From: Candidatus Magasanikiibacteriota bacterium
GTDB lineage: Bacteria > Patescibacteriota > Patescibacteriia > Magasanikbacterales > GWA2-37-8
Assembly: GCA_016182085.1 (NCBI GenBank)
Contig: JACOYB010000007.1
Coordinates: forward strand, 6,381-70,380
Direction of reading: 5' to 3'
Length of the DNA stretch: 64,000 nucleotides
A program made the translations under genes and the position numbers. The notes beneath the pieces are model-generated. The model searched no databases. It saw nothing but the letters and a program-made list of their open reading frames with translations, and had not been told where the DNA came from. Positions 12 through 39,216 of this stretch are shown piece by piece; position 1 is the stretch's first letter, and each line of letters starts with the position of its first letter.

Positions 12-584
12 GTGACGGTCTATGCGTGTGGTGGTTGGCAGCAGCCCCAGATCGATCAGATCAAGGAGGCTATTGCCGACATCAACGCCAACGCTCGGTA
101 CGAGAACGAAAATCAGTTCTTCGCCTACGGTGGCGAAAAGCCCGGTCTCTACGGCAGCGGGGAAAATAACGGGGTCCGGTGTGTGTACTGGATCTACAGT
201 AATTATCCCACGCAAGCTGGCAGGGATATGTGGAACGGAGCGCGTTCCGCAAACGAAAGCGACTGGCTTGCCGGTGAGTATGACGGAGAGAATGTCTTCG
301 TCTATGGCAACGGCACTTGCCCTGTTGGCACCTCCTGTACGTGGATGATGCAGAACGTTGTGACCCACGAACTGGGACACGCGCTCGGCGCCGGACACCT
401 AGGAGATGACCAGGAAGGCGTACTGACTTCGCGCCCTAGTAGCGCGTACGTGACCGGAGCAGATGTGGAAGAAATCTGCGATCACGCAAGCTGTGACTCG
501 AACTACCACGGTGTGGCTGCAAAGCTCACCGAGGAAACCTACGACCGCCTCGCGGCTGTAGAATTCCACTGCCTGAACGAGTAG
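12..584 (+). CDS. Zn-metalloprotease-like protein (metzincin-type HEXXHXXGXXH motif); 5' end probably runs off the window (frame open back to nt 1)
   Basis: Translation contains HELGHALGAGH, the HExxHxxGxxH zinc-binding signature. GC-rich codon usage unlike neighbouring genes. No stop codon upstream in frame. Confidence 0.6.
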   Translation: MTVYACGGWQQPQIDQIKEAIADINANARYENENQFFAYGGEKPGLYGSGENNGVRCVYWIYSNYPTQAGRDMWNGARSANESDWLAGEYDGENVFVYGNGTCPVGTSCTWMMQNVVTHELGHALGAGHLGDDQEGVLTSRPSSAYVTGADVEEICDHASCDSNYHGVAAKLTEETYDRLAAVEFHCLNE

Positions 585-4391: not shown

Positions 4392-4928
4392 ATGCAACAA
4401 ATAGAATCAATAATCTTAGGCGGTGGCTGTTTTTGGTGTTTGGAAGCAGCTTATTCTCATACCAAAGGCGTAGTATCGGCAGTTTCGGGATATGCTGGCG
4501 GCATGACCGTAAATCCATCTTATGAACAAGTGTGCGGCGGTAGTACCGGACACGCGGAAGTGGTAAAGATTACTTATAATCCCGAACAAATAACTCTGGA
4601 AGATATTTTGCATATTTTTTTCTTAATTCATGATCCTACGACATTAAATCGTCAGGGACACGATGTTGGCACGCAGTATCGTTCGGTAATTTTTTATGAA
4701 AACGAAAAACAAAAACAAGCGGCCGAAAATATTATAAAAGAATTAACTAAAGAAAAAGTATATAATGATCCGTTTGTAACCGAAGTCTTGCCGCTAGAGA
4801 AGTTTTATGAAGCGGAAAATTATCATCAGCATTATTTTCAAAAGAATCCGGATCAGGCATACTGCCAGGCAGTCATCGCTCCAAAACTGGCAAAGTTTAG
4901 ACAAAAGTATTCTAACTTTTACAACTAA
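4392..4928 (+). CDS. msrA: Peptide methionine sulfoxide reductase MsrA
   Basis: N-terminal GGGCFWCLEAAY active-site motif. Length about 178 aa. Confidence 0.9.
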   Translation: MQQIESIILGGGCFWCLEAAYSHTKGVVSAVSGYAGGMTVNPSYEQVCGGSTGHAEVVKITYNPEQITLEDILHIFFLIHDPTTLNRQGHDVGTQYRSVIFYENEKQKQAAENIIKELTKEKVYNDPFVTEVLPLEKFYEAENYHQHYFQKNPDQAYCQAVIAPKLAKFRQKYSNFYN

Positions 4929-4998
4929 TTTATCTTCTTTATATATTTGACATAAATTACAGGACAGTTTACCTTATATTATAAGGGGGGACAAGTCC

Positions 4999-5916
4999 AT
5001 GCACATTCGTATTCTTGCAGGGCTTCTGCTGGTAGTGTGGTACGCGACTTCGGCAATGGCCGATGAGCCAAAGCAGGAGCGCGCGCCGCCGGAGCTGGTT
5101 GAGCCAGCGCCACACCACGATCTGTTGTGTGGGATCTATACCCGTTTGGAGTTGCTGACCGGCTTTTCGCACAGCAATACCAAGGGTGACAATAGACTCG
5201 CCTTTCGTGCCAGAGCTTGGGGGTTTGAGTGCGGTTATCAGCACGGTAATTGGAAGGTGAAGTTTTCCGAGGGTCTTCGGAGCGAAGACTACAAGTTGTC
5301 TCACTGGGATTACAGATGGATGGGGAATTTGTCTGTAGCCGCCCAGGGGTTTGAGACCTTGATCGGAGTGGGCAGGGACCTCGGAAATTGGAACCTGAAC
5401 CTCAGCAATTGGTGCCTGTTTCACCGTTGCCTGGGCGATTGGCGCCTTGGCAAAGGGAGTGTTTGGGCAGAGATTGTGAGGCAGGAGGTTGATGTAGACA
5501 CATGGCGAGTGGATTGGTTGGGATTTGCTACCCGACATAGCTTTTCTGACTTTTCCGGATTCGCCAATGATCATGTCGACCTGGGTGTTTACTTGAAATC
5601 CTGGAAGTTCAGGGTCAAGGGCGAGCTGGAAGTGAACCGGAACCTTCATCTGGGTTTGGGGTTTGAATGGGGGATTCTGCGGCCTGGCGGCAATATCATT
5701 CCTGATGATGTTGCAGAGCTGGCTTTGAAGCATAACTTCATTGACTCTGAGCGAATTCTGCAAAAGCTGCGAGAGAATATTCATCTTGTTGGGGCTACGC
5801 CGGAAGCGCGGGTTGGGGGAGAAAGATGGAGTCTCTCAACAAGGGTTCTCTGGGGTAAGTTTGGCCAAGAGGATTGGGTCTGGGGGGCAGATCTAACCGT
5901 GAAGCTTAGCTTCTAA
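4999..5916 (+). CDS. Secreted outer-membrane beta-barrel-like protein on a GC-rich island
   Basis: Signal peptide MHIRILAGLLLVVWYATSAMA/DE. Trp/aromatic-rich. C-terminus LTVKLSF with alternating hydrophobics ending in Phe. Strong SD aagggggg. Codon GC clearly above the flanking genes. Confidence 0.55.
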   Translation: MHIRILAGLLLVVWYATSAMADEPKQERAPPELVEPAPHHDLLCGIYTRLELLTGFSHSNTKGDNRLAFRARAWGFECGYQHGNWKVKFSEGLRSEDYKLSHWDYRWMGNLSVAAQGFETLIGVGRDLGNWNLNLSNWCLFHRCLGDWRLGKGSVWAEIVRQEVDVDTWRVDWLGFATRHSFSDFSGFANDHVDLGVYLKSWKFRVKGELEVNRNLHLGLGFEWGILRPGGNIIPDDVAELALKHNFIDSERILQKLRENIHLVGATPEARVGGERWSLSTRVLWGKFGQEDWVWGADLTVKLSF

Positions 5917-6056
5917 GGTCGTTCGCAACGGGGGTTTAAAGAATAGAAAAGATTAAAGGTTGTGGTCGTCGGTACATTATGAGTCGTTTTTCGCTCTGCG
6001 GAACCGACTCGTTAGTTTTTTTAAGCGAATTTCAAATTTTGAAAATAATCTAAGCG

Positions 6057-6065
6057 TGATATAAT
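6057..6065 (+). promoter_or_regulatory. Extended -10 promoter (TGaTATAAT) with TTGAAA -35-like hexamer at 6039-6044, upstream of tdk
   Basis: TGnTATAAT lies 36 nt upstream of the ATG at 6101. Confidence 0.4.
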
Positions 6066-6100
6066 ATCATGTAGTTTATTTACATGACCGACAGTGTCGT

Positions 6101-6643
6101 ATGGATTTAACATTAATTCTGGGGCCAATGAAGAGTGGAAAATCTTTTGATTTGATAAGCTATTTTGCGCCGCTAAAATATACCGATATTCCCCATATTT
6201 TGTATCAATCAGCACGTAATGTCCGTGATGAGCATATTTCTTCCAGAAACGGAGTAATAATAGAAGCCAAAAAAGTTAATACCTTGGCCGATACTTTGGA
6301 TCAAGATTTTGCTGTTGTGGGTGTGGACGAAATTCATATGTTTGATCCAAAAGACGTGGCCGTAGTAGCGGAGTTATTAAATAGGGGCGTAAAAGTGGTA
6401 GCTGCCGGCTTGGATATAGATTACAAAGGCAACATGTTTGATATTGTAAAAGGTTTGCTAGAACTTGGCCCGAAAGAAGTTAAATATAAACGCGCTGTTT
6501 GCGAACTTTGTCGTCAGCCGGTCGCAGTTTACTCGCAAGTTTTTAATAAAGGCGTGCCTTTAACCGGTGGTATGCCGCCGGTTATACCGGACGATGGCAC
6601 CTTTACCTACCAGCCGGTTTGTAGAAATTGTTTTGTAACATAA
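6101..6643 (+). CDS. tdk: Thymidine kinase
   Basis: P-loop GPMKSGKS. C-terminal zinc ribbon CELCRQP…CRNCF. Confidence 0.85.
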   Translation: MDLTLILGPMKSGKSFDLISYFAPLKYTDIPHILYQSARNVRDEHISSRNGVIIEAKKVNTLADTLDQDFAVVGVDEIHMFDPKDVAVVAELLNRGVKVVAAGLDIDYKGNMFDIVKGLLELGPKEVKYKRAVCELCRQPVAVYSQVFNKGVPLTGGMPPVIPDDGTFTYQPVCRNCFVT

Positions 6644-6842: not shown

Positions 6843-8816
6843 ATGGTTTCAGGCAGGTGTAAATGGCAGTTGTTAATATTTTTAATAGGGCTTTTTTTAG
6901 CAAAGCCTGTTTTTGCGTCCACGACAGATGGCACAATTAGTACCGGCAATGCTTGGAGCGCAAACATTGGCTGGATAAAGTTTGCGGCCACAAATGGCAA
7001 TGTACATGTTACGGATGCTGGCTTGACTGGGCATGCTTGGAGCGACCTATACGGATGGATAAAATTAAACCCAACAACCAGTGGTGTGACTAATAATGGC
7101 GAAGGAGTTTTGTCCGGAAGCGCTTGGGGGGCAAATATTGGCTGGATAAATTTTTCCGGAGTGACTATAAATTCTAATGGTGTATTTACGGGCACAGCCA
7201 CAGGCGATAATACGGGCGCCATAAATTTTAGCTGCGCTAACTGTTTGGTGCAGACCGATTGGCGTCCGGCAAGTGCCAGAAACACCGGTCAAACAAACGG
7301 AGGCACGGCCTTTCCAGTTTCCGGCAGTTCCGGAGGAGGATCTATCCCAAGTACGACCGTTGCCACTACCACTTTGCCAACTTCTACAATTACTTTTCCC
7401 GCTACCACAACCCCTGTAGTTATCAAACCGATCGCGCCAACAGTCAGAGAGGTAATTGAAAAAGTTAAAGAAGTGATTAAGCCGATTATTACCAAAATAT
7501 TTCCTGTTGAAAAGTTAGTGCCGCCGCTTGCCAAATTATATTCCGAAGCAAAACTTTGGCTGCCAAAATGGTTTAGACCGCCAGCTATAGATAATACTAT
7601 TCCCATTGAGCGGTTTGTGGCAAAAAATACGCCTTTTGTATTTAAAACACCATCTATTTTTCTTACACCTAGCGTAAATAGATTTGTTTTCGCGCCACTT
7701 CCAAAAGAATTTCTGGCTTTAGAGAACAAATTCCCGCAAGTACATAATATTTTACAGCAAGTCGGGGTAAAACGTTTTACCGATATAGAAAAAGTAAAAA
7801 CCGCGCAATTATATTTGCCCGGGCTAACTCGCACGGTCGCTTTTGATAATCCAAAAATAAAAACCAGTGAATTTGGCGTAGAGAAGGCGATTCCCGTTGG
7901 CAATTTATCTGATAATACCAAAGACAAGCTTCCCGCCAATATAGTTTTCGCGCGCACGGCCGGCCAGCTGGTAGATTTTAAAATAGCTTTGTCTTTGACG
8001 TCCAAAGGACGGCCGGAACAAAAAATTTCCACGGTTTCCGGCAAGCCATTACAACTGGTAATGAAGCCGGATTTTCCCGCAAAAAGCATCAAAGGCTATT
8101 TGGTATTTAGATCGCAAAAACCGCAAGTCAGAGCCGAGATGCCGCTTGCCGGTTTAGTAAATTCGTTATTATTTGCGGAGCCGGTTTTTGCTCACGACCA
8201 AGTTCAGCCGGTACCGGTAGAAGAAAAATTGGTTTTGTTAGAGTTTGATTATACGGACCCAGATGGCGACGGAGTTTATACCGCCGACATTCAATCGCCA
8301 GTCCCGGCCGGAGAATACGAAATTATTACGGTCATTGAATATCAGGATCCGGAATTGGGCACAAAACAAATTCGGCTTATTACGGTGATAGATCCCGAAG
8401 GGTATGTATATGAAAAAATCGGTGATAAAGAGTTAAGAATTCCAAACGCTAAGGTAACAATTTATAATTTAAATACGGAAAGTAATTCGTACGAGGAGTG
8501 GCCGGCTAAAGATTTCCAACAGGAAAATCCGCAGACTACCGGATTAAGCGGCAGCTATTCTTTCTTGGTGCCGGGCGGCATGTATTATATACAGGCGGAA
8601 GCAAGCGGCTATAAAGAATACAAGAGCGAACCGTTTTCGGTAGATAATGGCGGGGGAGTGCATATGAATATTGAGCTCAAATCAAAATATTGGTGGCTGA
8701 AAGTTTTAGATTGGAAAACAACCATGCTATTTATCGTGATAATGTTGTTATTATTTAATTTTTACAGGGATTACCGAAGAAACAAAAAACAAATTAATAA
8801 TTTAATCAATAAATAA
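6843..8816 (+). CDS. Large secreted surface protein with novel AWSxNIGWIxF triple repeat, Thr/Pro-rich linker, CarboxypepD_reg-like segment and C-terminal TM anchor
   Basis: Signal peptide LAKPVFAST. Repeats GNAWSANIGWIKF / GHAWSDLYGWIKL / GSAWGANIGWINF. C-terminal hydrophobic helix followed by RDYRRNKKQ. Confidence 0.7.
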   Translation: MVSGRCKWQLLIFLIGLFLAKPVFASTTDGTISTGNAWSANIGWIKFAATNGNVHVTDAGLTGHAWSDLYGWIKLNPTTSGVTNNGEGVLSGSAWGANIGWINFSGVTINSNGVFTGTATGDNTGAINFSCANCLVQTDWRPASARNTGQTNGGTAFPVSGSSGGGSIPSTTVATTTLPTSTITFPATTTPVVIKPIAPTVREVIEKVKEVIKPIITKIFPVEKLVPPLAKLYSEAKLWLPKWFRPPAIDNTIPIERFVAKNTPFVFKTPSIFLTPSVNRFVFAPLPKEFLALENKFPQVHNILQQVGVKRFTDIEKVKTAQLYLPGLTRTVAFDNPKIKTSEFGVEKAIPVGNLSDNTKDKLPANIVFARTAGQLVDFKIALSLTSKGRPEQKISTVSGKPLQLVMKPDFPAKSIKGYLVFRSQKPQVRAEMPLAGLVNSLLFAEPVFAHDQVQPVPVEEKLVLLEFDYTDPDGDGVYTADIQSPVPAGEYEIITVIEYQDPELGTKQIRLITVIDPEGYVYEKIGDKELRIPNAKVTIYNLNTESNSYEEWPAKDFQQENPQTTGLSGSYSFLVPGGMYYIQAEASGYKEYKSEPFSVDNGGGVHMNIELKSKYWWLKVLDWKTTMLFIVIMLLLFNFYRDYRRNKKQINNLINK

Positions 8817-8856
8817 ATTAAAAACATTTAATTTATTTCTCTCACTCATTTCAATT

Positions 8857-9234
8857 ATGAAATCAAAAGCGTTTTGGGTTGTAATTTTTTTGGTATTGTT
8901 TGGGACAAATGTTTTGTTTGCTAGCTTGTATTTGCAGGCAAAAAAAGAACTGGAAGGCACGAAGGTGATTTTGTCTTCGCAGCAGTACCGCTCCAAGTAT
9001 ATGGATTTTCTGAAAATGTTTATTAAATTGGTAATAAAATCCGATAAAGAAGTTGATTTTGAAACTAGATTGAAACTTGAAAATGCGGTTAGGGGGCTAA
9101 AAGAAGAATATAACGATCCGGAAATTTTGGCGCAGTGGCAAAAATTTGTAAATAGCGGCAATGAAGCCGAGGCGCAAGCCAATGTAAAAGAGCTGTTGGG
9201 CATGCTGGTGGATAAGGTGTACGCGTTAAAATAA
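8857..9234 (+). CDS. Small membrane-anchored hypothetical protein
   Basis: N-terminal TM helix FWVVIFLVLFGTNVLFASLYL followed by a charged coiled region. Confidence 0.5.
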   Translation: MKSKAFWVVIFLVLFGTNVLFASLYLQAKKELEGTKVILSSQQYRSKYMDFLKMFIKLVIKSDKEVDFETRLKLENAVRGLKEEYNDPEILAQWQKFVNSGNEAEAQANVKELLGMLVDKVYALK

Positions 9235-9286
9235 AAATAGGGGACAAGTTTTGAAAAAGCAGGCAATTTAGGGTATAGTATCAGGA

Positions 9287-12200
9287 GTGTTTATGCTAAA
9301 GTCGCAGAAACAAAAATTGTTTTCCGTCAAAGTTAACGCAGCTTCTGGCGAGAAAAAAGAAAGTAAATTTTTAAGAGGATTTTTAAAATTATCCCCGGTT
9401 TTTGTTGGCCTGATAATGGTTTTTTATTATTTTTACCCCGCTTTTGCTAGTCCGCCTTCTAGTCCTTACGCACCCGGAGAAACTACCGATCCTTCTTGTT
9501 CCCCCGGAGATACCAACTGTACTGTTTATCCGCCATTTACCACCACTCTTACCGGCACGACCGCTATTACCATGGGTACTTCTTCCATTAGGTTTGCTTA
9601 CGACTCCACTAACTATTCTTCTCTCACCGTGGCTGCAGACGGGGCACTGACCGTTAGCTCTACTAATTCCGCCACCACTACTTTTATAAATAAAATATAT
9701 TTTTTAAGCAACGCATATTTTAATACGATTGCGTCCGGCACCTGGAACGGAAGCGTGATTGGCATTGCTTATGGCGGCACCAATTCGTCCACCATCGCCG
9801 CCAATGGTTCTATAGTTTACTCCGATGGCACCAGATACAACGCTACCGAAGTTGGAACCCTTGGTTACTTACTTATGTCCGCTGGAGGAGGCAGACCGGT
9901 ATGGATAAATAGCACTACCTTAGGCACCGGTATAGTGGGAAGTGGCACCGCTGGACAATTTCCTTATTATGCCACTAATGGCACAGCCGTAGTAGGAACT
10001 TCAACTTTATTTATTACCCCAACCAGTTTAGTTGGCATCGGCACCACCACCCCTACTCAAAAATTAGCAGTCGTAGGAAATATTTCTAATATTCTGGATC
10101 CTAGCAATACATCGTCTATTTCTCAGGTTTCTACCGTTACGGTGGGAACTGTGCCGCGAGGACTTTTTGTTTCCGGTCGGTACTTATATGTGGCTAATTA
10201 TAATGATAATACAATATCTGTCGTTGATGTTTCTAACTCTTCTGCCCCTGTCCAAATAGCTACGACTTCCGTAGACACTAACCCTATCTCTACCTTTGTT
10301 TCCGGTCGGTACTTATATGTGGCTAATTATAATTCAAATACTGTTTCCGTTGTTGATATTTCTAACCCCTCTGCCCCTAGAAAACTTTCTAGTGTGGCGG
10401 TAGAGGCGCAACCAACCACAATTTACGTCTCCGGCCATTATGCCTATGTAGTAAACCATACTTCAAACACTATTTCCGTTGTTGATGTCTCCAATCCATA
10501 TACTCCCGTCCAAATAGCTACGACTTCCGTAGGCAATAGTCCCCGCTCAGTTTATGTATCCGGCCGTTATGCGTATGTGGCAAATTATCTTGGAAATACC
10601 ATGTCGGTGGTTGATGTCTCCAATCCCGCGACTCCTGTCGAGATAGCTACGGTGGCTGTGGGAGCTAACCCGCGAGGCGTATATGTATCCGGCCGCTATG
10701 CTTATGTGGCAAATTTTTCTGGAGCGACCGTATCTGTTGTTGATGTCTCCAATCCTGCTGTTCCCGTTCAGATTGCTACCGCTCCTGTGGGTACTAGCCC
10801 TATGGCCATTTATGTCTCCGGCCGCTATGCCTATGTGGCTAACTTTAGTTCAGCCAATATTTCTATCGTTGATGTTTCTAGTTCTTCAGCTCCCAGCCAC
10901 ATTGCCACGGTGCCTGTAGGCACAAATCCTTATTCTATTTTTGTTTCCGGCCGCAATGTTTATGTGGCTAATTATGGTTCAAATACAATTTCTATCGTAG
11001 ACATACCCGGCGCTGAAGTAAGCAGCCTTATCGCTCACTCTGCCGAAGTAGGCAACATTCAATCTAGAAATGATATTTTAGCTCAAGGAAATATTATGGC
11101 CGGTACTGGTTTGATGGTTGGAGCGGGAGGGATAATGTCACAAGGAGGGTTATCTATCTTTGCCTCTACAACCGGTTCCACTTCGTCTATATTTAGTATT
11201 GATTCGGCCGCCTCTTCCAGCATAATTAAAGTTTTGGCCAATGGCAGAGTTGGTATCGGCACTTCAAGTCCGCAAGCGCTTCTCAGTTTGGTAAATGACT
11301 CTAATACTCAACTTCACCTCAACAGGTCCGGCGCATCCGGGCAAACGGGTACTCTTAGAATCGGCAATCAAGCAGGTTTAATTTCAAATTCTCGTGGAGG
11401 AATTAACAACGGAGTTCTGCGTAATGATGGCGTTTTACATCTGACTCGCAATCTTGTCTATAACAGCGGAGACTGGGAATTAGAAGCAGCCGACACAGGC
11501 GGTTTATTGGAAGTTGGAGCCGAGGGTATTTCTTTATGGACTGCCGCTTCAGCTGCGGCGGGTACAAAAAACCTTGGCATTATTTTAATGGCTCGTGATG
11601 ATGGTGATCTGGTAATTCCGGCAAAAGTCGGTATCGGGGTTCCTTATAATGATTCCACAGTTACTACCCCTCTGTATGTACAAGGAAACACCTCAGAAAT
11701 TATGAGGTCAGTTCGTACTTCCACGCTTACCAATGTTGCGCCTACGGGTTTGCGTGTTGCGCACAACTCCACCAACTCCAGTCTTGCCGATGGTTTTGGA
11801 ATGGTGATGCAGTTTGCCATAGATAGCCCTTCAATCTCGGAAACGGCCATAGCCGAAATCGGCGGTGTTAGATCGGGAGGAGATACTTCGGGCGCCCTTG
11901 TGTTTAGTACTTACAACGCGGGAGTTAGCACAGAAAAATTAAGAATTACACCTTCGGGTTTAATTGGAATTAACTCCACCTCACCCATAGCCAGTTTTGC
12001 ATTACAAGGCACGAGTACGAGTAATCTTTTTGCCTTTTCATCTTCCACCGGCGCAAATTTATTGAGATTGACCACTGACGGTGGTTTAGGTTTTGGTACT
12101 ACCCCGGCTACTACCGGCGCTATTCGCCTTGAAAATAATACGGGTATTTATGCCAGAAGAGCTGATAATGCCGCCGATATTGGCTTGCTTAGTTTGAACA

Positions 12201-14212
12201 CATCAAACCAGATCGTAATTGGCGTCAACGCCAGCGCCGTATTATTAAGTACCGATTTAGGTTTTAGCACTGATAATACCTACGACATCGGCGGAGGCAC
12301 AAGAAGTCCGCGGCATATTTTTGCGCGTAGTAATATAGCTGCCGGTACCAGCACCGCGATTGCCAGATTGACAGTGCAAGGAGATGGAACAGCCAATCCT
12401 TTTTCGGTTGTCACTTCAACCGCCGCCGCTTCTTCCATGTTTACAATTTTGACAAATGGCAGAGTTGGTATTAACACATCTTCTCCCGTTGCTATGTTAG
12501 CATTACAGGGCAGTGATGGTATTAATCCTTTGGAAATAGCTTCATCTACCGGCGCCAGCATGTTTAGAATTTTAACAAATGGAAATATTGGCATTGGAAA
12601 CAGCGCTCCTCTAGGTGATTTAGAAATAGGCAGCACAGCAGAATCGCAGGGTTTATTGGGTATTACAGCTAGCACTGCCGGAACAAGCGATATTTTCTTT
12701 AATAACAGCTCACAAAATAGAGGTGTAATTCGCTATACGCACTCCAGTGACAGTATGGCTCTTTGGAGCGCGGGAAGCGAAAGAATGAGAATTTCAAGTA
12801 CCGGTTTGGTGGGCGTTGGCACTACTACGCCATTATCCAAATTAACCGTAGTCGGTTCCGGTAATAACAGTACTACGATTGCTTTTAATACTTATAGCGC
12901 CTCCGGCACTTCCACTTTCAAAATTGATGATGCCGGCAATGCCTTTTTTGCCAACGATGGTATTTATTACGAAGCGTCCAGTTCAGTTGCTTATATAAAT
13001 AGTTTAGAAACAGGTCCGTTAAATTTTGATGATAATGCCGGCATGGTAACTTGGGTTGATATGTTAGTTTCTTCCTCAGTGGCCGGAACGCCAAACAGTT
13101 ATACGGCCGCCATAAATGATAACCCAATGTTAATGATATATGCGGAAAGCAATGGTTCGGGCGGTATTGCCAATCAAACAATTTCCATAAACACCAGCAC
13201 GACTTCTACTTATAAATTGTATATAGACGCGGGCGCCAGCACCACCGCCGGTTTGGGCGTAAATGGTTTTATAAAAGCCTCCGGGTATATTGCCGGCACC
13301 ACTACTTTAGATATTGCCGAAACTTACCCATTGGATCCGGAATGCGAGGCCAATGGAAATTGCCCTACATATGGCGAAGTCGTTTGTTCCGGAGAAGACG
13401 CATCTTCTACTGTATTTATCAAAAAATGTTCCGCCGCTTATGCCGATAATATTATCGGTGTGATTTCAGAAAACCCCGGTTTTATTTTGGGAGGTTATGA
13501 TGTCAGTAATGTAAGAATAAAAGGTTTATACCCGACTTCATTTAGGCCGGTAGCTTTGGGCGGACGCGTGCCGGTTAAAGTTTCTAACGCTAATGGCGCT
13601 ATTAAAGAAGGGGATTATCTTACTTCTTCCGCCGAGCCGGGGTTAGCCGTAAAAGCCATAGAGCCGGGCAGAGTAATAGGTATTGCTTTGCAATCTGTGG
13701 AAGAAAACGCTGAAACCGGCACTGTGATAATGTTTGTAAATCCGCATTGGTCGGCCGGCAGCTTAACCGAAGAGAGTATAGGCGCTGATTTGCCGGATTT
13801 TGCCGATGTTGTATTAGATAAATTTACTTTGGCCATAAAAAATAGTTTAAGAAAATTAGGGCTAGCAATTAAAAACGGAATTGCCACGGTAAAAGAATTG
13901 TTTGCTGACAAAGTTACTACCCAGCAGCTTTGTGTCGGTAGCACTTGTGTAAACGAACAGCAGCTGCAAGATATTTTAAATAGAACAAATGTACAGCCGG
14001 CGCCTTCCAATCCGTCGCCAGTGATACCGGAAAATGAAGCCGTTAACGCCCAAACCGCCCCCACTTCTTCCGTATCTGCGCCAGAATCCGCTGTTTCTTC
14101 TACCACAAATATAGTTGAAACTGTTGTTAACGAAACCGTTTTGGATACTGCTTCTTCCACACCCGCTGTTTCCGATACTGCTGCAGGCTCCACCACCGCC
14201 GAATCGCAATAA
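9287..14212 (+). CDS. Giant (1641 aa) anchored surface protein: 7x YVTN/LVIVD-type beta-propeller repeats, then tail-fibre-like G-[RN]-[VI]-G-I-G-T-x-S-P repeats, with a Cys-containing C-terminal domain
   Basis: N-terminal TM anchor. Seven repeats of about 43 aa (e.g. VYVSGRYAYVANYLGNTMSVVDVSNPATPVEIATVAVGANPRG). Recurring …NGRVGIGTSSPQALLSL… units. SD aggag. Confidence 0.8.
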   Translation: MFMLKSQKQKLFSVKVNAASGEKKESKFLRGFLKLSPVFVGLIMVFYYFYPAFASPPSSPYAPGETTDPSCSPGDTNCTVYPPFTTTLTGTTAITMGTSSIRFAYDSTNYSSLTVAADGALTVSSTNSATTTFINKIYFLSNAYFNTIASGTWNGSVIGIAYGGTNSSTIAANGSIVYSDGTRYNATEVGTLGYLLMSAGGGRPVWINSTTLGTGIVGSGTAGQFPYYATNGTAVVGTSTLFITPTSLVGIGTTTPTQKLAVVGNISNILDPSNTSSISQVSTVTVGTVPRGLFVSGRYLYVANYNDNTISVVDVSNSSAPVQIATTSVDTNPISTFVSGRYLYVANYNSNTVSVVDISNPSAPRKLSSVAVEAQPTTIYVSGHYAYVVNHTSNTISVVDVSNPYTPVQIATTSVGNSPRSVYVSGRYAYVANYLGNTMSVVDVSNPATPVEIATVAVGANPRGVYVSGRYAYVANFSGATVSVVDVSNPAVPVQIATAPVGTSPMAIYVSGRYAYVANFSSANISIVDVSSSSAPSHIATVPVGTNPYSIFVSGRNVYVANYGSNTISIVDIPGAEVSSLIAHSAEVGNIQSRNDILAQGNIMAGTGLMVGAGGIMSQGGLSIFASTTGSTSSIFSIDSAASSSIIKVLANGRVGIGTSSPQALLSLVNDSNTQLHLNRSGASGQTGTLRIGNQAGLISNSRGGINNGVLRNDGVLHLTRNLVYNSGDWELEAADTGGLLEVGAEGISLWTAASAAAGTKNLGIILMARDDGDLVIPAKVGIGVPYNDSTVTTPLYVQGNTSEIMRSVRTSTLTNVAPTGLRVAHNSTNSSLADGFGMVMQFAIDSPSISETAIAEIGGVRSGGDTSGALVFSTYNAGVSTEKLRITPSGLIGINSTSPIASFALQGTSTSNLFAFSSSTGANLLRLTTDGGLGFGTTPATTGAIRLENNTGIYARRADNAADIGLLSLNTSNQIVIGVNASAVLLSTDLGFSTDNTYDIGGGTRSPRHIFARSNIAAGTSTAIARLTVQGDGTANPFSVVTSTAAASSMFTILTNGRVGINTSSPVAMLALQGSDGINPLEIASSTGASMFRILTNGNIGIGNSAPLGDLEIGSTAESQGLLGITASTAGTSDIFFNNSSQNRGVIRYTHSSDSMALWSAGSERMRISSTGLVGVGTTTPLSKLTVVGSGNNSTTIAFNTYSASGTSTFKIDDAGNAFFANDGIYYEASSSVAYINSLETGPLNFDDNAGMVTWVDMLVSSSVAGTPNSYTAAINDNPMLMIYAESNGSGGIANQTISINTSTTSTYKLYIDAGASTTAGLGVNGFIKASGYIAGTTTLDIAETYPLDPECEANGNCPTYGEVVCSGEDASSTVFIKKCSAAYADNIIGVISENPGFILGGYDVSNVRIKGLYPTSFRPVALGGRVPVKVSNANGAIKEGDYLTSSAEPGLAVKAIEPGRVIGIALQSVEENAETGTVIMFVNPHWSAGSLTEESIGADLPDFADVVLDKFTLAIKNSLRKLGLAIKNGIATVKELFADKVTTQQLCVGSTCVNEQQLQDILNRTNVQPAPSNPSPVIPENEAVNAQTAPTSSVSAPESAVSSTTNIVETVVNETVLDTASSTPAVSDTAAGSTTAESQ
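10150..11010 (+). repeat. Tandem ~129-bp coding repeats (7 copies) encoding the propeller blades inside the 1641-aa gene
   Basis: Nucleotide-level near-identical units (…gtttccggtcggtacttatatgtggctaattataat…) recur every ~129 bp. Confidence 0.7.
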
Positions 14213-14222
14213 ATAGAATCTT

Positions 14223-16370
14223 ATGAGTAAGAAAAAATTTTTACAATCAAACTTGGTGTCTATTTCCGTTTTGTCGGCTCTGTTGGTTGTATTTATTATA
14301 AATAATAATCAGGTCGAAGCGGCTGTTATTAATAAAACAAGCGACCTAAATTCTTTAAGAAACGGATTGGTCGGGTGGTGGACTTTTGATGGGGCAAATG
14401 TGACCGCAACGACAGTTACCGATAAAAGCGGCGGCGGGTTGAACGGCACAAGAAACGGCACTCTTAGGGCTGCGGGAAAAATCGGCCAAGCCTTAAAATT
14501 TAACGGCACCAGCAGCGATTATATTACTCTTCCGGCTACGGGCGATTTTAATGTTAGAGGGAATATGGGGCGTCTCTCCAGTGAAAATTGGAGTTTAAGC
14601 GCTTGGTATAAAGGCACCGACCTTAGGCAGAATGTTGATTATGGCGTATCTTTAATTGGTTGGAACAGTGGCAATCTTTTTGCTTCTTTTTCAGTGCGAA
14701 GCGGCTATGCGGAATTTGCGCATTACAATGGCGGTTGGCAGCACAATATAAAATCAGCCACTTTGGTTGCAGACGGCAAATGGCACTTGATTACGTACTC
14801 CAACTACTCGGACAACACAGGCAGTCTTTATATTGACGGTATTTTAGAAATTGATAGAGCCAGCTCCACTATCGGCAGCGGAAGTTTTTTTCAGCCGTAT
14901 CATATTGGCGCTAACTTTAATAATATATATACAATTGGAACTATTGATGATGCCCGTATTTATAACCGTTCCTTGTCATCGGTAGAAGTAACACAGCTTT
15001 ACAAAACGGGCGGAGGAAAAATAAATAAAACAGATGCAATTAGAGCGCAGTTAAGAGAGGGGTTGAAAGCGCACTGGACATTTGATGGGGCAGATATGAC
15101 CCCCAATACTAGTACCGACAAAAGTGGCCAGGGAAATCATGGTACAAGAACCGGTGTAACCACCATGGTAAGAGGTAAAGTCGGGCAAGCCATGGAATTT
15201 AACGGGGCTACTGGCAGCGATATTGTTGTTACAACCAGCGCTTCTTTAAACCCCGCTACAGCTATGACAGTTTCTGCGTGGGTGAAAACCACCGATTCTA
15301 CAGGTATTATAATAAATAAAGACGACGGTGGTTCAAATAGGCAGTATTCCTTATTGACAAATTCAGGGGTACAATTTTTTGCTTTTCAATCTGGAGCCAC
15401 TTACACAAATACTGCTGCGATAGGAATTTCCGATGGCAAATGGCATTTTGTTGTTGGTACGGTAGATGTTAATGGAGACGGTAAAGCGCGAATGTATATA
15501 GATGGAGTTTTAAGAGATACGGGTGCAGTCGCAATTACAAGTATAGCTTCCAGCAGTGTGCCTGCTACCATTGGCGACAGACCGACAAACGCCTTTCCTT
15601 TGAGCGGTACAATTGATGATGCTCGAATTTATAATCGCGCCTTATCCCATGCCGAAGCGGCTGAACTATATAAAATGGCAAATAATAAAACCAGTAAAAC
15701 AGACACAGTGAGAGTGCAGCCTAAAAACAGTTTGGTTGGGCATTGGACTTTTGATGGCGGGAATATGACATCCGTTACGAGTACCGACACAAGCGGCCAG
15801 GGAAATCATGGAACAAGCACGATAATAAGCGCGACTAGAGGAAAAATAGGACAAGGTCTAGATTTTAAAGATACCAATTATTTTATAAACCTGGGCGATC
15901 CGTCATCTTTAAGGTTAACAACTCAGTTTACGGTTTCTTCTTGGGTTAAGGTTCGCGCTCATAAAAATTATAATCAAGTTTTTATGAAAAACGACGCTAA
16001 TTCGGATTTTTATGGCCTTTTGTTGGATGCAAACGGAAAATTAACCGGACAAGTTGGCAATGGCGGTTCTAATGTTACGCTAGTGGGCAATACGGTCTTA
16101 TCAGCAGGCAAGTGGTATCATGTAGCCGCAACCTATAACTCTGCTTTAGCATCCGGCAATCTAAAATTATATATAAATGGCGTTGAAGATACGTATGTGG
16201 GCAACGGTAATTTTTCTAGCGGCGTAGGGGACACAGCCGGCGGTTATACCAATATAGCTAAAGATCCGGTGAATGGAAGAAATTTTGATGGGTTACTTGA
16301 TGATGTCCGCGTTTATAGCCGTCCTCTGGCTCCGGCCGAAATCATGGCTTTGTATAAAACGGGTAAATAA
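14223..16370 (+). CDS. Secreted protein with three LamG-like (concanavalin A-like lectin/glucanase) jelly-roll domains
   Basis: Signal peptide. Three ~230-aa modules each with W(T)FDG…D(K/T)SG(Q)GNHGT…DDARIYNR(A/S)LS…LYKTG, as in the LamG_3-type domain family. Confidence 0.75.
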   Translation: MSKKKFLQSNLVSISVLSALLVVFIINNNQVEAAVINKTSDLNSLRNGLVGWWTFDGANVTATTVTDKSGGGLNGTRNGTLRAAGKIGQALKFNGTSSDYITLPATGDFNVRGNMGRLSSENWSLSAWYKGTDLRQNVDYGVSLIGWNSGNLFASFSVRSGYAEFAHYNGGWQHNIKSATLVADGKWHLITYSNYSDNTGSLYIDGILEIDRASSTIGSGSFFQPYHIGANFNNIYTIGTIDDARIYNRSLSSVEVTQLYKTGGGKINKTDAIRAQLREGLKAHWTFDGADMTPNTSTDKSGQGNHGTRTGVTTMVRGKVGQAMEFNGATGSDIVVTTSASLNPATAMTVSAWVKTTDSTGIIINKDDGGSNRQYSLLTNSGVQFFAFQSGATYTNTAAIGISDGKWHFVVGTVDVNGDGKARMYIDGVLRDTGAVAITSIASSSVPATIGDRPTNAFPLSGTIDDARIYNRALSHAEAAELYKMANNKTSKTDTVRVQPKNSLVGHWTFDGGNMTSVTSTDTSGQGNHGTSTIISATRGKIGQGLDFKDTNYFINLGDPSSLRLTTQFTVSSWVKVRAHKNYNQVFMKNDANSDFYGLLLDANGKLTGQVGNGGSNVTLVGNTVLSAGKWYHVAATYNSALASGNLKLYINGVEDTYVGNGNFSSGVGDTAGGYTNIAKDPVNGRNFDGLLDDVRVYSRPLAPAEIMALYKTGK

Positions 16371-24854: not shown

Positions 24855-25373
24855 CTATAAAACCACGGGATTACTTTGTTTCGTTCGCAACGACAGTATG
24901 ATTTCCATACTTCCAACCAAAACTCCGGTATAAAACAAATCTCCAAGCAGGGTATTTTTAAAGAATGGCAAGGCTGCAATGTAGCTCTGCATCAGACCGT
25001 TTAGGTTATGTGGATACATGGTTCCAAAGGCCCATACCGCCCAGTTAGTGATGATAAAGAATAGGATGCTTGCCAGCAGTGTGCCGCCAAGGACGGTGTT
25101 AAGCTTTTTGTGTTTTTGAATTACTAAACCGATAATACCGGTAAGCGCAAAAGTAGCATATACAGATAGCATAACCGGCCAGAGATAAAAACCTAAAACA
25201 ATATCAGTTACAAACATGGTGGCCATAGGTATAAAAATGGCAAATTTTCTTGGTAAGTATATCCCCGAAAACAAAGCAATGGCCGCGATTGGCGCAAAGT
25301 TTGCCGGGTGAGGGAGTAGTCGGGTTGAGATGCCGAGAAGAATAAGAAGAAAGGCGGGAAGGTAGCGCTGCAT
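24855..25373 (-). CDS. Small polytopic membrane protein (5 TM), possible ECF-transporter S-component-like substrate carrier; last gene of the riboswitch operon
   Basis: 172 aa, five hydrophobic helices. Starts 17 nt after the upstream gene on the same strand. Confidence 0.55.
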   Translation of the reverse strand: MQRYLPAFLLILLGISTRLLPHPANFAPIAAIALFSGIYLPRKFAIFIPMATMFVTDIVLGFYLWPVMLSVYATFALTGIIGLVIQKHKKLNTVLGGTLLASILFFIITNWAVWAFGTMYPHNLNGLMQSYIAALPFFKNTLLGDLFYTGVLVGSMEIILSLRTKQSNPVVL

Positions 25374-25390
25374 ATGCGTTTATTAATTTA

Positions 25391-27631: not shown

Positions 27632-27636
27632 AAAAA

Positions 27637-28224
27637 TTATTTATTTTCGTACCTCCATGTGATTAAATCGTTTGGTTTAAGGGTATAATTTGAGATACCA
27701 ACCTTTGCTTCCTCGTTATTTATATAAAATGTCCAGTAGAAACCGGTAGACGGACTATTTTTCTGGCTATTGATTTCTTCTACGAAATGCCCCAGGCCGG
27801 AAAATACTTTGGTAGAAAACGAGATTTCGTTGCTTTCTCGTAATGCAACCATTGCTTCATAAGCGGTAGCGCCTGGTTTTACAGTTGGATTGTACTCCCT
27901 ATCTTCAATTTTGAATGTAACGGGTATAGTTTCGGTTGAGTTGGTTGGAGGTGGTGGGGACAAAGGGGAGGTGTTGGAGGCGGTATTTGTTCCTGCGGAG
28001 CTAGTTACAGTTTTTTCGTTACTATCGCTAGTTTTATTTTTTAGCACCGCCGGTTTTAAATCTGGTTCAGTTTGAAGGGCGGCGGCAGTGTTTGTGGGGG
28101 CAGTATATAAAGGCGGGGAGGCGTTATTATTATCTGGATTAAGGAATAAGTAGGTTGCGGCAAAAACCGAAATAAAAATCAGAAAAATTAATAGTCGGTG
28201 AAGGAGTTTGTTTGAATTGGGCAT
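27637..28224 (-). CDS. DUF4430-like secreted protein (beta-domain fold related to intrinsic factor/transcobalamin C-terminal domain), N-terminally anchored
   Basis: N-terminal TM, Pro/Thr/Ser linker, then VTFKIEDREYNPTVKPGATAYEAMVALRESNEISFSTKVFSGLGHFVEEINSQ…FYWTFYINNEEAKVGISNYTLKPNDLITWRY, as in DUF4430. Confidence 0.65.
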   Translation of the reverse strand: MPNSNKLLHRLLIFLIFISVFAATYLFLNPDNNNASPPLYTAPTNTAAALQTEPDLKPAVLKNKTSDSNEKTVTSSAGTNTASNTSPLSPPPPTNSTETIPVTFKIEDREYNPTVKPGATAYEAMVALRESNEISFSTKVFSGLGHFVEEINSQKNSPSTGFYWTFYINNEEAKVGISNYTLKPNDLITWRYENK

Positions 28225-28244
28225 ATGCAGTTTTAATTATCCGC

Positions 28245-39166: not shown

Positions 39167-39216
39167 GGTTTTTTATGCTTGCCATGAATCGTCATGGCGC
39201 CGTCCGCAACGCGGAT

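What the first reader, a model, noticed from the sequence alone, without database searches (positions are those of the whole stretch)
4930..5940. Outer-membrane beta-barrel-like gene with foreign composition inside an otherwise Gram-positive-type/CPR-like genome
Seen: one GC-rich ORF with a Sec signal peptide (…ATSAMA/DE), high Trp/Tyr content and a C-terminal …LTVKLSF strand ending in Phe. This is the hallmark of BAM-dependent outer-membrane beta-barrels. Its promoter/SD region is AT-rich like the host, and only the coding region is GC-rich. The flanking genes (msrA, tdk) are ordinary AT-rich backbone. Inference: a single-gene acquisition from a diderm donor, or a chimeric insertion. An OMP has no obvious destination in a monoderm cell, so it may be a pore-forming or secreted factor instead.
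Basis: partly seen in the sequence, partly recalled or inferred. Interest (0 to 1): 0.6.

Follow-up and report, generated by a model that had tools for sequence, protein, structure and literature searches.

The report
Outer-membrane-type barrel protein in CPR bacteria
A real, conserved gene in a small group of ultra-small "CPR" bacteria, which are thought to have no outer membrane, encodes an exported protein predicted to fold like the barrel proteins of Gram-negative outer membranes; it was inherited within the group, not recently imported.

Summary
Window 4999-5916 (+) is a 305-aa ORF with a Sec-type signal peptide, 5.6% Trp and a C-terminal ...LTVKLSF. Its GC is 0.53 against 0.43 for the window, and it lies between msrA and tdk.

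The "single-gene import from a diderm / chimeric insertion" reading does not hold. Fifteen distinct homologues (12-95% aa identity) lie directly upstream of tdk in independently assembled Magasanikbacteria-type (CPR) contigs, usually in the same helicase-msrA-X-tdk-SecA order. dN/dS is 0.17-0.35. The gene is GC-richer than its surroundings in 13/13 genomes, so the composition is a family trait, not a fresh scar.

The beta-barrel reading is supported at model level. AlphaFold2 with a 7-sequence alignment (pLDDT 72, pTM 0.65) gives about ten long antiparallel strands. All top Foldseek hits in PDB and BFVD are outer-membrane barrels (omptins, autotransporter barrels, OpcA). Conserved Cys pairs fall in cross-strand register.

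There is no sequence membership in any Pfam/NCBIfam family. No BamA or other diderm marker occurs in the window.

Best reading: a new, lineage-restricted, exported OMP-type barrel. Its target membrane is unknown; I infer (not shown) a pore at the host interface. Moderately interesting.

The parts
4392..4928 (+). msrA (peptide methionine sulfoxide reductase). Upstream neighbour in the AT-rich backbone, adjacent to X in 9 of 13 family loci.
   Evidence: Pfam PMSR E 1.9e-67; GC 0.382; synteny
4918..4990 (+). AT-rich upstream region of X. It holds a sigma-70-like match (TTTACA-18-TATATT, 4918-4947), TTGACA at 4947-4952, and the Shine-Dalgarno AAGGGGGG at 4983-4990, 8 nt before the ATG.
   Evidence: Consensus scan (not above shuffles, so weak); sequence read; region nearly identical in L009
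4999..5916 (+). X: 305-aa ORF for the exported OMP-type beta-barrel protein (stop codon included). NCBI name: hypothetical protein HYT15_04000, Candidatus Magasanikbacteria.
   Evidence: (dN/dS 0.17-0.35)
4999..5061 (+). Sec-type signal peptide, aa 1-21 (MHIRILAGLLLVVWYATSAMA); predicted signal peptidase I cleavage after AMA.
   Evidence: Sequence pattern; helix 3-18 in the model; the same n/h/AxA layout in 12/13 homologues
5062..5118 (+). Pro/Glu/Lys-rich, length-variable, low-confidence linker (aa 22-40).
   Evidence: pLDDT below 50 for residues 16-39; variable length and composition in alignment A3
5119..5913 (+). Beta-barrel domain (aa 41-305). About 10 long antiparallel strands: 41-59, 63-82, 85-103, 107-133, 148-184, 193-211, 216-235, 261-273, 277-288, 292-304. 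Invariant C44 and C78 lie in cross-strand register.
   Evidence: AF2 DSSP; Foldseek hits are only OM barrels; alternating hydrophobic/polar columns; invariant columns
5404..5469 (+). 22-aa insertion (SNWCLFHRCLGDWRLGKGSVWA, aa 136-157) found only in the window and L009 alleles, at the tip of the beta4-beta5 hairpin. It carries its own Cys pair (C139, C144).
   Evidence: Alignment A3; pLDDT dips to 62-64 there
5548..5574 (+). Conserved loop/short helix between beta5 and beta6 (aa 184-192, D-F-x-x-F-A-x-x-H). D184, A189 and H192 are nearly invariant.
5704..5778 (+). Conserved two-helix loop between beta7 and beta8 (aa 236-260). D236 and L243 are invariant and D249 nearly invariant. It lies on the same barrel end as the 184-192 loop, opposite the N and C termini.
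   Evidence: the topology is inferred from strand order
5872..5913 (+). C-terminal strand (aa 292-305, DWVWGADLTVKLSF). Beta-signal-like alternating hydrophobic pattern ending in Phe.
   Evidence: 11/13 aligned members end in F or W; both extra members also end in F
5979..6024 (+). Intrinsic-terminator-like hairpin (5979-6012) followed by GTTAGTTTTTTT. X therefore looks monocistronic.
   Evidence: RNA fold centroid hairpin, -15.4 kcal/mol. The whole-region z-score is not significant, and the pattern scan missed it because of an internal loop. It is conserved with changes in L009.
6039..6643 (+). tdk promoter-like site (TTGAAA-17-TAATAT, 6039-6067) and tdk (thymidine kinase, 6101-6643). tdk is the invariant downstream neighbour of X.
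   Evidence: X-tdk adjacency in 15/15 loci
4969..5784 (-). 271-aa antisense ORF inside X. Regarded as a by-product of the GC-rich, G-skewed sense strand, not as a gene.
   Evidence: Antisense ORFs of varying length occur in other members. Purifying selection fits the + frame, with dS much greater than dN.

Best explanation
SHOWN. Window 4999-5916 is a genuine protein-coding gene, called X here. It belongs to a small, previously unnamed family found only in a subclade of Candidatus Magasanikbacteria (CPR/Patescibacteria). In that subclade it always lies directly upstream of tdk, usually in the order helicase-msrA-X-tdk...SecA-SecDF. It has diverged in place: 12-95% aa identity for X against 63-89% for tdk. 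There is at least one recent gene-sized allelic exchange between close relatives. Its high GC and G-skew are a property of the whole family, not a mark of recent foreign origin.

SHOWN AT MODEL LEVEL. The product has a cleavable Sec signal peptide, a short disordered Pro/Glu/Lys-rich linker, and a ~265-aa barrel of about ten long antiparallel strands of the outer-membrane-protein type. One or two hairpins are stapled by disulfides at the N/C-terminal end. Two conserved loops (D184..H192; D236..L243..D249) lie at the opposite end. The last strand is beta-signal-like and ends in Phe or Trp.

INFERRED MECHANISM. The protein is exported by the Sec system (SecA and SecDF are encoded nearby), oxidised and folded outside the cytoplasmic membrane. 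Because the cell is expected to lack an outer membrane and BAM, the barrel would insert without BAM into a lipid layer that is not the cell's own cytoplasmic membrane. The most plausible target is the envelope of the organism to which these episymbiont-type bacteria attach. There it would act as a channel or surface binding/catalytic barrel for scavenging nutrients. The conserved acidic/His loops would form the gate or binding site. The constant tdk neighbour makes nucleosides one candidate cargo. The target membrane and the cargo are not shown.
For: Real gene: dN/dS is 0.35 (window vs L009) and 0.17-0.19 (other pairs) in the + frame.

Family and synteny:
- Exhaustive phmmer over 1.84 billion representatives finds only 3 other clusters.
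- All look-ups place them next to tdk in CPR-type contigs of up to 495 kb.
- A tdk-anchored scan of GTDB genomes plus a local HMM adds L009, L010, L051, L013, L024, L019, L015 and L021. All are upstream of tdk, and all are in genomes whose tdk is at least ~70% identical.
- Two metagenome loci show the same arrangement.
- X and tdk pairwise identities correlate (Spearman 0.55).

Composition is a family trait: X GC exceeds locus GC in 13/13, and X GC3 exceeds background GC3 in 13/13.

Not an assembly artefact: both junctions are reproduced in the independent assembly L009.

Recent allelic exchange: between window and L009, dS is 0.077 in X against 0.63 in msrA and 0.44 in tdk. DNA identity is 92-99% across most of the gene against 72-89% in the flanks.

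Fold:
- AF2 with a 7-sequence MSA gives pLDDT 72.3 and pTM 0.65, an all-beta meander.
- The Foldseek PDB top 50 are all OM barrels. Autotransporter barrels score E ~1e-6; omptins Pla/OmpT give the best TM-scores (0.44-0.51, rmsd 6.5-7.6).
- BFVD hits are likewise OMP-type.
- One member gives a sub-threshold Pfam OMP_b-brl hit (E 0.0011).

Internal check on the model: the invariant C44 and C78 satisfy i+j=122 for a hairpin whose turn is at 60-62. The second Cys pair of most members maps to 273/278 around the 274-276 turn.

Monoderm context: no BamA/Omp85, Lpt, Lol, TolC or secretin among the ~55 window ORFs scanned. The literature treats CPR as monoderm.
Against: - The structure is a prediction from only 7 sequences, with moderate confidence. 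I could not inspect coordinates, so barrel closure, the width of the hydrophobic belt and the pore were not verified. Foldseek TM-scores are modest (0.3-0.5) with large rmsd.
- The alternating pattern runs along very long strands. It fits a soluble or ligand-carrying barrel as well as a membrane one.
- The complete genomes could not be searched for BamA or other outer-membrane genes; only 64 kb plus ~10-kb loci were seen.
- Nothing links the protein to a host membrane. X-tdk adjacency may be plain inherited synteny, since X and tdk look like separate transcription units.
- BAM-independent insertion of OMP-type barrels into native membranes is inefficient (established knowledge).
- The persistent GC3 excess is unexplained.
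Confidence: 0.6

Rival explanations
1. One reading: a recent single-gene acquisition from a diderm donor, or a chimeric/mis-assembled insertion, explains the GC-rich block.
For: The GC step (0.53 against 0.38-0.41 in the flanks) coincides with the ORF ends. Codon choice, not only amino-acid composition, is atypical: expected GC 0.470, observed 0.532. The window-L009 comparison shows that a gene-sized tract has moved recently.
Against: - Orthologues occupy the same slot in 15 independent assemblies at 12-95% identity.
- The junctions are identical in L009.
- There are no flanking repeats, tRNA or mobility genes.
- No homologue outside the clade was found in 1.84 billion representatives, on viral contigs or in PHROGs.
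- The GC excess is present in 13/13 orthologues although synonymous sites are saturated between subfamilies.
- The recent exchange is between close Magasanikbacteria relatives, not from a diderm.
Confidence: 0.04
2. Ancient acquisition: the ancestor of this Magasanikbacteria subclade captured an OMP gene from a diderm (possibly its host), together with or next to msrA. The gene has since been inherited vertically and has diverged beyond recognition. This concerns origin only and is compatible with the best explanation for present function.
For: X is absent from the tdk neighbourhood of more distant Magasanikbacteria/Patescibacteria. Some of these have helicase directly followed by tdk, with neither msrA nor X (L017, L020). 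The fold and the beta-signal-like C-terminus are typical of diderm proteins. The GC-rich bias could be a remnant kept by some force.
Against: No donor family is detectable by sequence: Pfam/NCBIfam none; PDB profile search none; hhalign to OmpT and Tsx gives probability below 1%. Absence near tdk is not absence from the genome. A remnant composition should have ameliorated at this divergence.
Confidence: 0.3
3. X is not a membrane protein. It is a soluble or cell-wall-associated barrel (ligand or lipid carrier, or enzyme) that only resembles OMPs in a moderate-confidence model.
For: - Strands are very long (19-37 residues), and the hydrophobic/polar alternation runs along their whole length rather than over a ~10-residue belt.
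- Loops on both ends are mostly 2-4 residues, unlike the long external loops of classical OMPs.
- Disulfides are uncommon in classical OMPs (established knowledge).
- Conserved Asp/His residues suggest a binding or catalytic site.
- No BAM is expected in this lineage.
Against: No soluble barrel appears among the listed Foldseek PDB hits or the significant (E<=0.001) BFVD hits. The size (265 aa for 10 strands) matches omptin/OpcA-type membrane barrels rather than lipocalin, FABP or GFP-type soluble barrels (established knowledge). The terminal aromatic residue and alternating last strand are conserved.
Confidence: 0.25
4. These particular CPR bacteria do have an outer membrane or an equivalent outer lipid layer with an Omp85-type insertase, and X is simply one of their own OMPs.
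For: The beta-signal-like C-terminus is conserved across 12-95% identity, which in diderms reflects recognition by BAM. Envelope architecture has been seen directly in very few CPR lineages.
Against: No Omp85/POTRA, Lpt, Lol, TolC or secretin was found in 64 kb of window. X is the only OMP-like gene detected in the window and in ~0.4 Mb of related loci by the family HMM. CPR are consistently described as monoderm. The type IV pilus genes present (PilM, pilin, prepilin peptidase) come without a secretin in the window.
Confidence: 0.07

Closest known systems
Omptin-type 10-stranded outer-membrane barrels (E. coli OmpT, Yersinia Pla; Pfam PF01278)
   Same: Similar size (~270-300 aa mature) and about 10 long antiparallel strands. 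These give the best TM-scores of all PDB hits (TMq 0.44-0.46, TMt 0.46-0.51, rmsd 6.5-7.6). Conserved Asp/His residues sit near one barrel end.
   Different: No sequence relationship: no Pfam hit in any family member scanned and hhalign probability 0.13%. The conserved D184/H192/D236/D249 lie in loops or helices, not in the omptin D83/D85/D210/H212 strand arrangement. That comparison was not made structurally. X has disulfides. The organism is a presumed monoderm.
Autotransporter beta-domains (EstA, EspP, AIDA-I, Hbp, NalP; PF03797)
   Same: Lowest Foldseek E-values (8e-7 to 1e-5). Barrel of similar length, with helical segments associated with it.
   Different: Autotransporter barrels have 12 strands and follow a large passenger domain. 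X has only a 20-35-aa linker before the barrel. There is no Pfam match. TM-scores are 0.29-0.40 with rmsd 11.6-24.
Generic small OMP barrels of Pfam PF13505 (OMP_b-brl), OpcA, OmpW
   Same: The only sequence-level hint: the L006 member hits PF13505 at E 0.0011, 19.6 bits. OpcA (10 strands) and phage-encoded OmpW-like proteins are among the fold hits. X shares the signal peptide and the aromatic C-terminus.
   Different: The hit is below the gathering score (28.7) and occurs in 1 of 17 members scanned. Barrels matching PF13505 are typically of about 8 strands and half the size.
Tsx nucleoside-specific channel (PF03502)
   Same: An OMP barrel of similar length involved in nucleoside uptake. X is invariably next to thymidine kinase, a nucleoside-salvage enzyme.
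   Different: This is purely a contextual analogy. hhalign probability is 0.77%. Tsx is not among the top 50 fold hits. Tsx has 12 strands.

Membership tests
BAM-dependent outer-membrane beta-barrel proteins (OMPs) | N-terminal Sec signal peptide cleaved by signal peptidase I | tested here: met
   n/h/AxA pattern in the window protein and in 12/13 homologues. Pattern reading only; no SignalP-type tool was available.
BAM-dependent outer-membrane beta-barrel proteins (OMPs) | Closed antiparallel barrel with an even number of membrane-spanning strands | tested here: inconclusive
   The AF2 model (pLDDT 72, pTM 0.65) has about 10 long antiparallel strands. All top Foldseek hits are OM barrels. Coordinates could not be inspected, so closure and the hydrophobic belt are unverified.
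BAM-dependent outer-membrane beta-barrel proteins (OMPs) | C-terminal beta-signal: alternating hydrophobic last strand ending in an aromatic residue | tested here: met
   ...GADLTVKLSF in the window. 11/13 aligned members end in F or W, and two end in IP/FP. L053 and L054 also end in F.
BAM-dependent outer-membrane beta-barrel proteins (OMPs) | Sequence membership in a curated OMP family (Pfam or NCBIfam) | tested here: not met
   No family at E<=10 for the window protein. There is one sub-threshold PF13505 hit in one member. The PDB profile search found nothing significant.
BAM-dependent outer-membrane beta-barrel proteins (OMPs) | The organism has an outer membrane and a BamA/Omp85 insertase | not testable with these tools
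   None was found among the ~55 ORFs of the 64-kb window. The literature treats CPR as monoderm. The complete genomes could not be fetched.
Omptin proteases (PF01278) | Sequence similarity and the catalytic Asp-Asp / Asp-His pairs | tested here: not met
   No Pfam hit; hhalign against E. coli OmpT gives probability 0.13%. Only the overall fold is similar.
Autotransporters (PF03797) | Passenger domain N-terminal to a 12-stranded barrel | tested here: not met
   Only a 19-aa linker precedes the barrel in the window protein (20-35 aa in other members). The model has about 10 strands. There is no Pfam hit.
Tsx nucleoside channel (PF03502) | Sequence similarity to Tsx | tested here: not met
   hhalign probability 0.77%; no Pfam hit.
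Recently acquired genomic island | Atypical composition | tested here: met
   GC 0.53 against 0.43; GC3 0.60 against 0.42.
Recently acquired genomic island | Absent from the same locus in close relatives | tested here: not met
   Present upstream of tdk in 15 related assemblies.
Recently acquired genomic island | Flanked by repeats, a tRNA or mobility genes | tested here: not met
   Only short chance-level repeats. The nearest tRNA is 25 kb away. The neighbours are msrA and tdk.

The most novel reading that the evidence does not exclude
A lineage of CPR bacteria, organisms believed to have a single membrane and no BAM machinery, maintains under purifying selection an outer-membrane-type beta-barrel with an intact beta-signal. 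One possibility is that it is delivered into the envelope of a partner cell, perhaps assembled there by the partner's own BAM, or self-inserting, as a feeding pore. The other is that it is the first molecular trace of an unrecognised outer lipid layer in part of the CPR. In addition, its GC3 stays far above the genome's in 13/13 lineages. With the gene-sized recombination tract, this would fit GC-biased gene conversion at a recombination-prone surface-protein locus.
Probability: 0.3. Interest if true: 0.8.

Novelty: new variant of a known kind. Interest (0 to 1): 0.55.

Why it matters
CPR/Patescibacteria may make up a large share of bacterial diversity and depend on other cells, yet how they take material from partners is largely unknown. 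Their envelopes are assumed to be monoderm.

A conserved, exported OMP-type barrel in such a lineage gives a concrete and cheap experiment: refold it, then measure conductance, localisation and cargo. That experiment bears on two questions. One is how episymbionts open a conduit to their hosts. The other is whether outer-membrane-type barrels can function without BAM, or whether some CPR retain outer-membrane remnants, which is relevant to the diderm-to-monoderm transition.

The finding is also a caution. A sharp single-gene GC anomaly was here a stable family trait, not evidence of recent transfer.

Tried and rejected
- Single-sequence AF2 gave pLDDT 35 and was useless. It was superseded by the 7-sequence run.
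- The 13-sequence alignment could not be submitted for structure prediction because locus-derived sequences are not accepted.
- The third word-indexed protein search, with the 13-sequence profile, returned only one new protein.
- The search for related loci with the 6-sequence family alignment failed because no stretch was conserved enough.
- The metagenome scan with the window subfamily found nothing. The scan with the L001 subfamily found only 2 loci.
- Viral contigs and PHROGs gave no relatives, so a phage-borne origin was rejected.
- Pfam/NCBIfam, a PDB sequence-profile search, and hhalign against OmpT and Tsx gave no sequence membership anywhere.
- The flanking-repeat search found nothing meaningful.
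- The promoter/terminator pattern scan was not above shuffles and missed the terminator hairpin, which RNA folding then showed.
- The antisense 271-aa ORF was considered as an alternative gene and rejected, because substitution patterns fit the + frame.
- Highly-expressed-gene codon bias was considered as the cause of the high GC3 and judged unlikely, because ribosomal protein L20 in the window has GC3 0.41.
- The record titles 'uncultured Gammaproteobacteria bacterium' and 'Candidatus Udaeobacter sp.' on several family loci were considered as evidence of diderm carriers and rejected. L009, so titled, is 80-99% identical in DNA to the window across msrA-X-tdk. All these loci share the Magasanikbacteria-type tdk and synteny.
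Full report
OBSERVATION.

The region holds one ORF, window 4999..5916 on the + strand, 305 aa.
- Its GC is 0.531 (GC1 0.58, GC2 0.42, GC3 0.59). The window as a whole is 0.428, and the two neighbours are 0.382 and 0.407.
- The neighbours are msrA (Pfam PMSR, E 1.9e-67) and tdk (Pfam TK, E 5.5e-26).
- The N-terminus MHIRILAGLLLVVWYATSAMA|DE has the layout of a Sec signal peptide.
- The C-terminus is ...WGADLTVKLSF.
- Trp is 5.6% against 1.1% in 19 other window proteins. Tyr is 2.0% against 3.1%, so only the Trp half of 'high Trp/Tyr' is right.
- The upstream 70 nt are AT-rich with a strong Shine-Dalgarno AAGGGGGG.
- A hairpin followed by a T-run lies after the stop codon.
- X is not the only GC-rich ORF in the window. 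Others, all without family assignment and mostly secreted-looking, lie at 12-584, 38229-41192, 57109-57675 and 58492-60254.

IS IT A GENE, AND WHOSE?

The word-indexed search of 5.8 billion proteins found only the protein itself, named 'hypothetical protein HYT15_04000 [Candidatus Magasanikbacteria bacterium]'. An exhaustive phmmer pass over 1.84 billion cluster representatives found three more clusters, at 49%, 27% and 29% identity. A profile search added three more proteins.

Looking up where these are encoded was decisive. Every one lies directly upstream of a thymidine kinase gene in CPR-type contigs of up to 495 kb. Most share the same order as the window: DEAD-box helicase - msrA - X - tdk - ... 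- SecA - ... - SecDF (compared).

I then anchored on tdk. 44 loci from GTDB species representatives encode a tdk 48-89% identical to the window's. A local HMM of the family finds X upstream of tdk in eight more of them (L009, L010, L051, L013, L024, L019, L015, L021). All of these have a tdk at least ~70% identical to the window's. The more distant Magasanikbacteria/Patescibacteria have other genes there, sometimes the helicase directly followed by tdk. Two further metagenome loci (L053, L054) have the same X-tdk arrangement. That gives 15 distinct loci, all X-tdk. A 16th sequence, P0007, has no examined context.

Several carrier records are titled 'uncultured Gammaproteobacteria bacterium', and one 'Candidatus Udaeobacter sp.'. 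These titles are not credible as taxonomy. L009, so titled, is 80-99% identical in DNA to the window across msrA-X-tdk. The whole series grades into records named Magasanikbacteria.

SELECTION AND HISTORY.
- In the + frame, dN/dS is 0.35 (window vs L009), 0.19 (vs L003) and 0.17-0.19 (L001 vs L006/L007). dN is two to three times that of tdk or msrA. So X is a real, constrained, but fast-evolving gene.
- X and tdk pairwise identities correlate (Spearman 0.55). X ranges over 12-95% while tdk stays at 63-89%. This is as expected for divergence in place.
- Superimposed on this is a recent exchange. Between the window and L009, dS in X is 0.077 against 0.63 in msrA and 0.44 in tdk. DNA identity is 92-99% across most of the gene against 72-89% in the flanks. 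A roughly gene-sized tract has therefore been swapped between close relatives.
- Both junctions of the GC-rich block are reproduced in that independent assembly, which removes the mis-assembly option.
- There are no flanking repeats, tRNAs or mobility genes. There are no relatives on viral contigs or in PHROGs.

COMPOSITION.

X is GC-richer than the rest of its locus in 13 of 13 genomes, for example 0.527 vs 0.429, 0.500 vs 0.385 and 0.464 vs 0.397. Its GC3 exceeds that of the background genes in 13 of 13, by 0.02 to 0.20.

In the window, amino-acid composition (Gly, Trp, Arg, Ala) raises the expected GC from 0.433 to 0.470. Codon choice supplies the rest, up to 0.532.

Synonymous sites are saturated between subfamilies. 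A GC excess seen in all of them is therefore a maintained trait, not un-ameliorated foreign DNA. Expression-linked codon bias is unlikely, because ribosomal protein L20 in the window has GC3 0.41. What maintains the excess is unexplained. GC-biased gene conversion at a recombination-prone locus is my conjecture.

STRUCTURE.

Without an alignment AlphaFold2 failed (pLDDT 35). With the seven admissible family members it gave pLDDT 72.3 and pTM 0.65. All five models lay at pLDDT 67-72.

The model has these elements:
- a signal-peptide helix;
- a disordered Pro/Glu/Lys-rich linker (residues 22-40);
- a meander of about ten long antiparallel strands (41-59, 63-82, 85-103, 107-133, 148-184, 193-211, 216-235, 261-273, 277-288, 292-304);
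- a short helix at 186-192;
- two helices at 237-257.

Foldseek against 350,542 PDB chains returned 88 matches at E<=0.001, and the 50 listed are all outer-membrane barrels. Autotransporter barrels have the lowest E-values (8e-7 to 1e-5). The 10-stranded omptins Pla/OmpT have the best TM-scores (0.44-0.51, rmsd 6.5-7.6). OpcA, FapF, COG4313 channels and porins follow. Against viral predicted structures, the named significant hits (E<=0.001) are again OMP-type; the rest are unnamed proteins.

The 13-sequence alignment gives an independent check of the hairpin registers.
- The two invariant cysteines, C44 and C78, sum to 122. That is exactly what a beta1-beta2 hairpin with its turn at 60-62 requires for cross-strand neighbours.
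- The second Cys pair present in most members maps to window positions 273 and 278, around the 274-276 turn.
- The window/L009-specific 22-aa insertion carries its own pair, C139 and C144, at a hairpin tip.
- All three pairs are at the barrel end that carries the N and C termini.
- The other conserved residues (D184, A189, H192; D236, L243, D249) lie in the two long loops at the opposite end.
- Family-averaged hydropathy alternates along most strands.
- Eleven of the 13 aligned members end in Phe or Trp after an alternating hydrophobic strand, and L053 and L054 also end in Phe.

At sequence level there is no membership anywhere. Pfam and NCBIfam gave no hit for the window protein. One member has a sub-threshold PF13505 OMP_b-brl hit (E 0.0011, 19.6 bits against a cut-off of 28.7). 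The PDB profile search found nothing significant. hhalign probabilities are 0.13% to OmpT and 0.77% to Tsx.

CONTEXT OF THE CELL.

About 55 window ORFs were scanned with Pfam. None is an Omp85/BamA, Lpt, Lol, TolC or secretin family member.
- Present are SecA, SecD/SecF, PilM, a type IV pilin, a prepilin peptidase, a VirD4-like coupling protein, PRPP synthase, phosphoribosyltransferases and several very large secreted repeat proteins.
- The literature also notes that very few CPR envelopes have been seen directly.
- I found no paper describing OMP-type barrels in CPR.
- I could not fetch the complete genomes, so absence of BAM is not shown for them.

INTERPRETATION.

Shown:
- X is a real, exported, disulfide-containing protein family.
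- The family is confined, as far as searches reach, to one Magasanikbacteria subclade.
- It is inherited in place next to tdk, evolves fast and recombines occasionally.
- It is persistently GC-rich.

Shown at model level: an outer-membrane-type barrel of about ten strands.

Inferred: after Sec export the barrel inserts, without BAM, into a lipid layer other than the cell's own cytoplasmic membrane. The most plausible target is a partner cell's envelope. There it would serve as a channel or surface binding/catalytic barrel for nutrient scavenging, with the conserved acidic/His loops as the functional site. The invariable tdk neighbour makes nucleosides a candidate cargo. However, X and tdk look like separate transcription units, and the link may be mere synteny.

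Rivals:
- a soluble or wall-associated barrel (0.25);
- an ancient capture from a diderm, which concerns origin and is compatible with the above (0.3);
- a genuine outer layer with an insertase in these cells (0.07);
- recent HGT or a chimera (0.04).

COMPARISON AND NOVELTY.

X works like, or at least looks like, small and medium OMP barrels. It is closest in shape to the omptin/OpcA 10-stranded class. It fails every sequence-membership test, it lacks the passenger domain of autotransporters, and it sits in a lineage that should have nowhere to put it. I therefore rate it a new variant of a known kind: a new family of OMP-type barrels in a presumed monoderm.

It is moderately interesting (0.55). 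The fold rests on a medium-confidence prediction and the mechanism is inferred. The case is nevertheless clean, testable and unexpected for envelope specialists.

Noticed in passing
window 12-584 (+), 38229-39014 (-), 39217-40266 (-), 40434-41192 (-), 57109-57675, 58492-60254: Several other GC-rich ORFs or islands (GC 0.50-0.63 against a 0.43 backbone), with at most sub-threshold Pfam hits and no family assignment. 12-584 carries an HELGHALGAGH metzincin-like zinc-protease motif, with weak Reprolysin/M10 hits. 38229-41192 encodes three Cys-rich secreted or lipoprotein-like proteins. X is therefore one of a set of GC-rich, extracellular, orphan genes in this genome.
   Followed up: partly
window 4860-5905 and 6357-6556, compared with L009: Mosaic similarity to the closest relative. 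X and the 3' half of tdk are 92-99% identical in DNA, while msrA and the 5' half of tdk are 72-89% identical. This indicates recent homologous recombination tracts between related lineages.
   Followed up: partly
window 6843-16370 (+): About 10 kb lies between tdk and SecA. It encodes three large secreted proteins: 657 aa with a CarboxypepD_reg-like domain; 1641 aa with LVIVD/beta-propeller repeats; 715 aa with Laminin_G_3. In L001 and L003, tdk is followed by only one or two small ORFs before SecA. L005 has a different LVIVD protein there. This looks like a variable surface-protein cassette region.
   Followed up: no
window 24855-28438 (-): An AdoCbl riboswitch (28280-28438, 54.3 bits) lies upstream of a DUF4430 protein, a 746-aa secreted protein with a terpenoid-cyclase-like repeat hit, and a DUF6580 membrane protein. 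This is a likely riboswitch-controlled cobalamin capture/uptake operon.
   Followed up: no
loci L009, L010, L012-L014, L016-L023, L026-L028, L030, L032, L035-L038, L041, L044, L048; also L024 and L042: Many GTDB representative MAG records that carry a Magasanikbacteria-type tdk (and often X) are titled 'uncultured Gammaproteobacteria bacterium', 'Candidatus Udaeobacter sp.' or 'Armatimonadota bacterium'. Judging by synteny and 57-89% tdk identity to named Magasanikbacteria, these titles are placeholders or mis-binned contigs. They should not be read as diderm carriers.
   Followed up: partly
window 4969-5784 (-): A 271-aa antisense ORF spans most of X. Shorter antisense ORFs occur inside other family members. 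It is most likely a by-product of the scarcity of TTA/CTA/TCA triplets on the G-rich sense strand.
   Followed up: partly
L006 1-9102; L001 and L007 between msrA and X: The upstream context of X varies. In L006 it follows a thiol-redox cluster (DsbD, thioredoxins, glutaredoxin, VKOR, DoxX). In L001/L007/L053 a 62-64-aa ORF and a short-chain dehydrogenase are inserted between msrA and X. The redox/disulfide context may be relevant to a disulfide-containing exported protein, or it may be coincidental.
   Followed up: no
window 33991-36549 (-) and 44644-47618 (+): A VirD4/TraG-like type IV coupling protein lies at 33991-36549. A PilM - response regulator - pilin - prepilin peptidase cluster lies at 44644-47618. 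No secretin was seen in the window.
   Followed up: no
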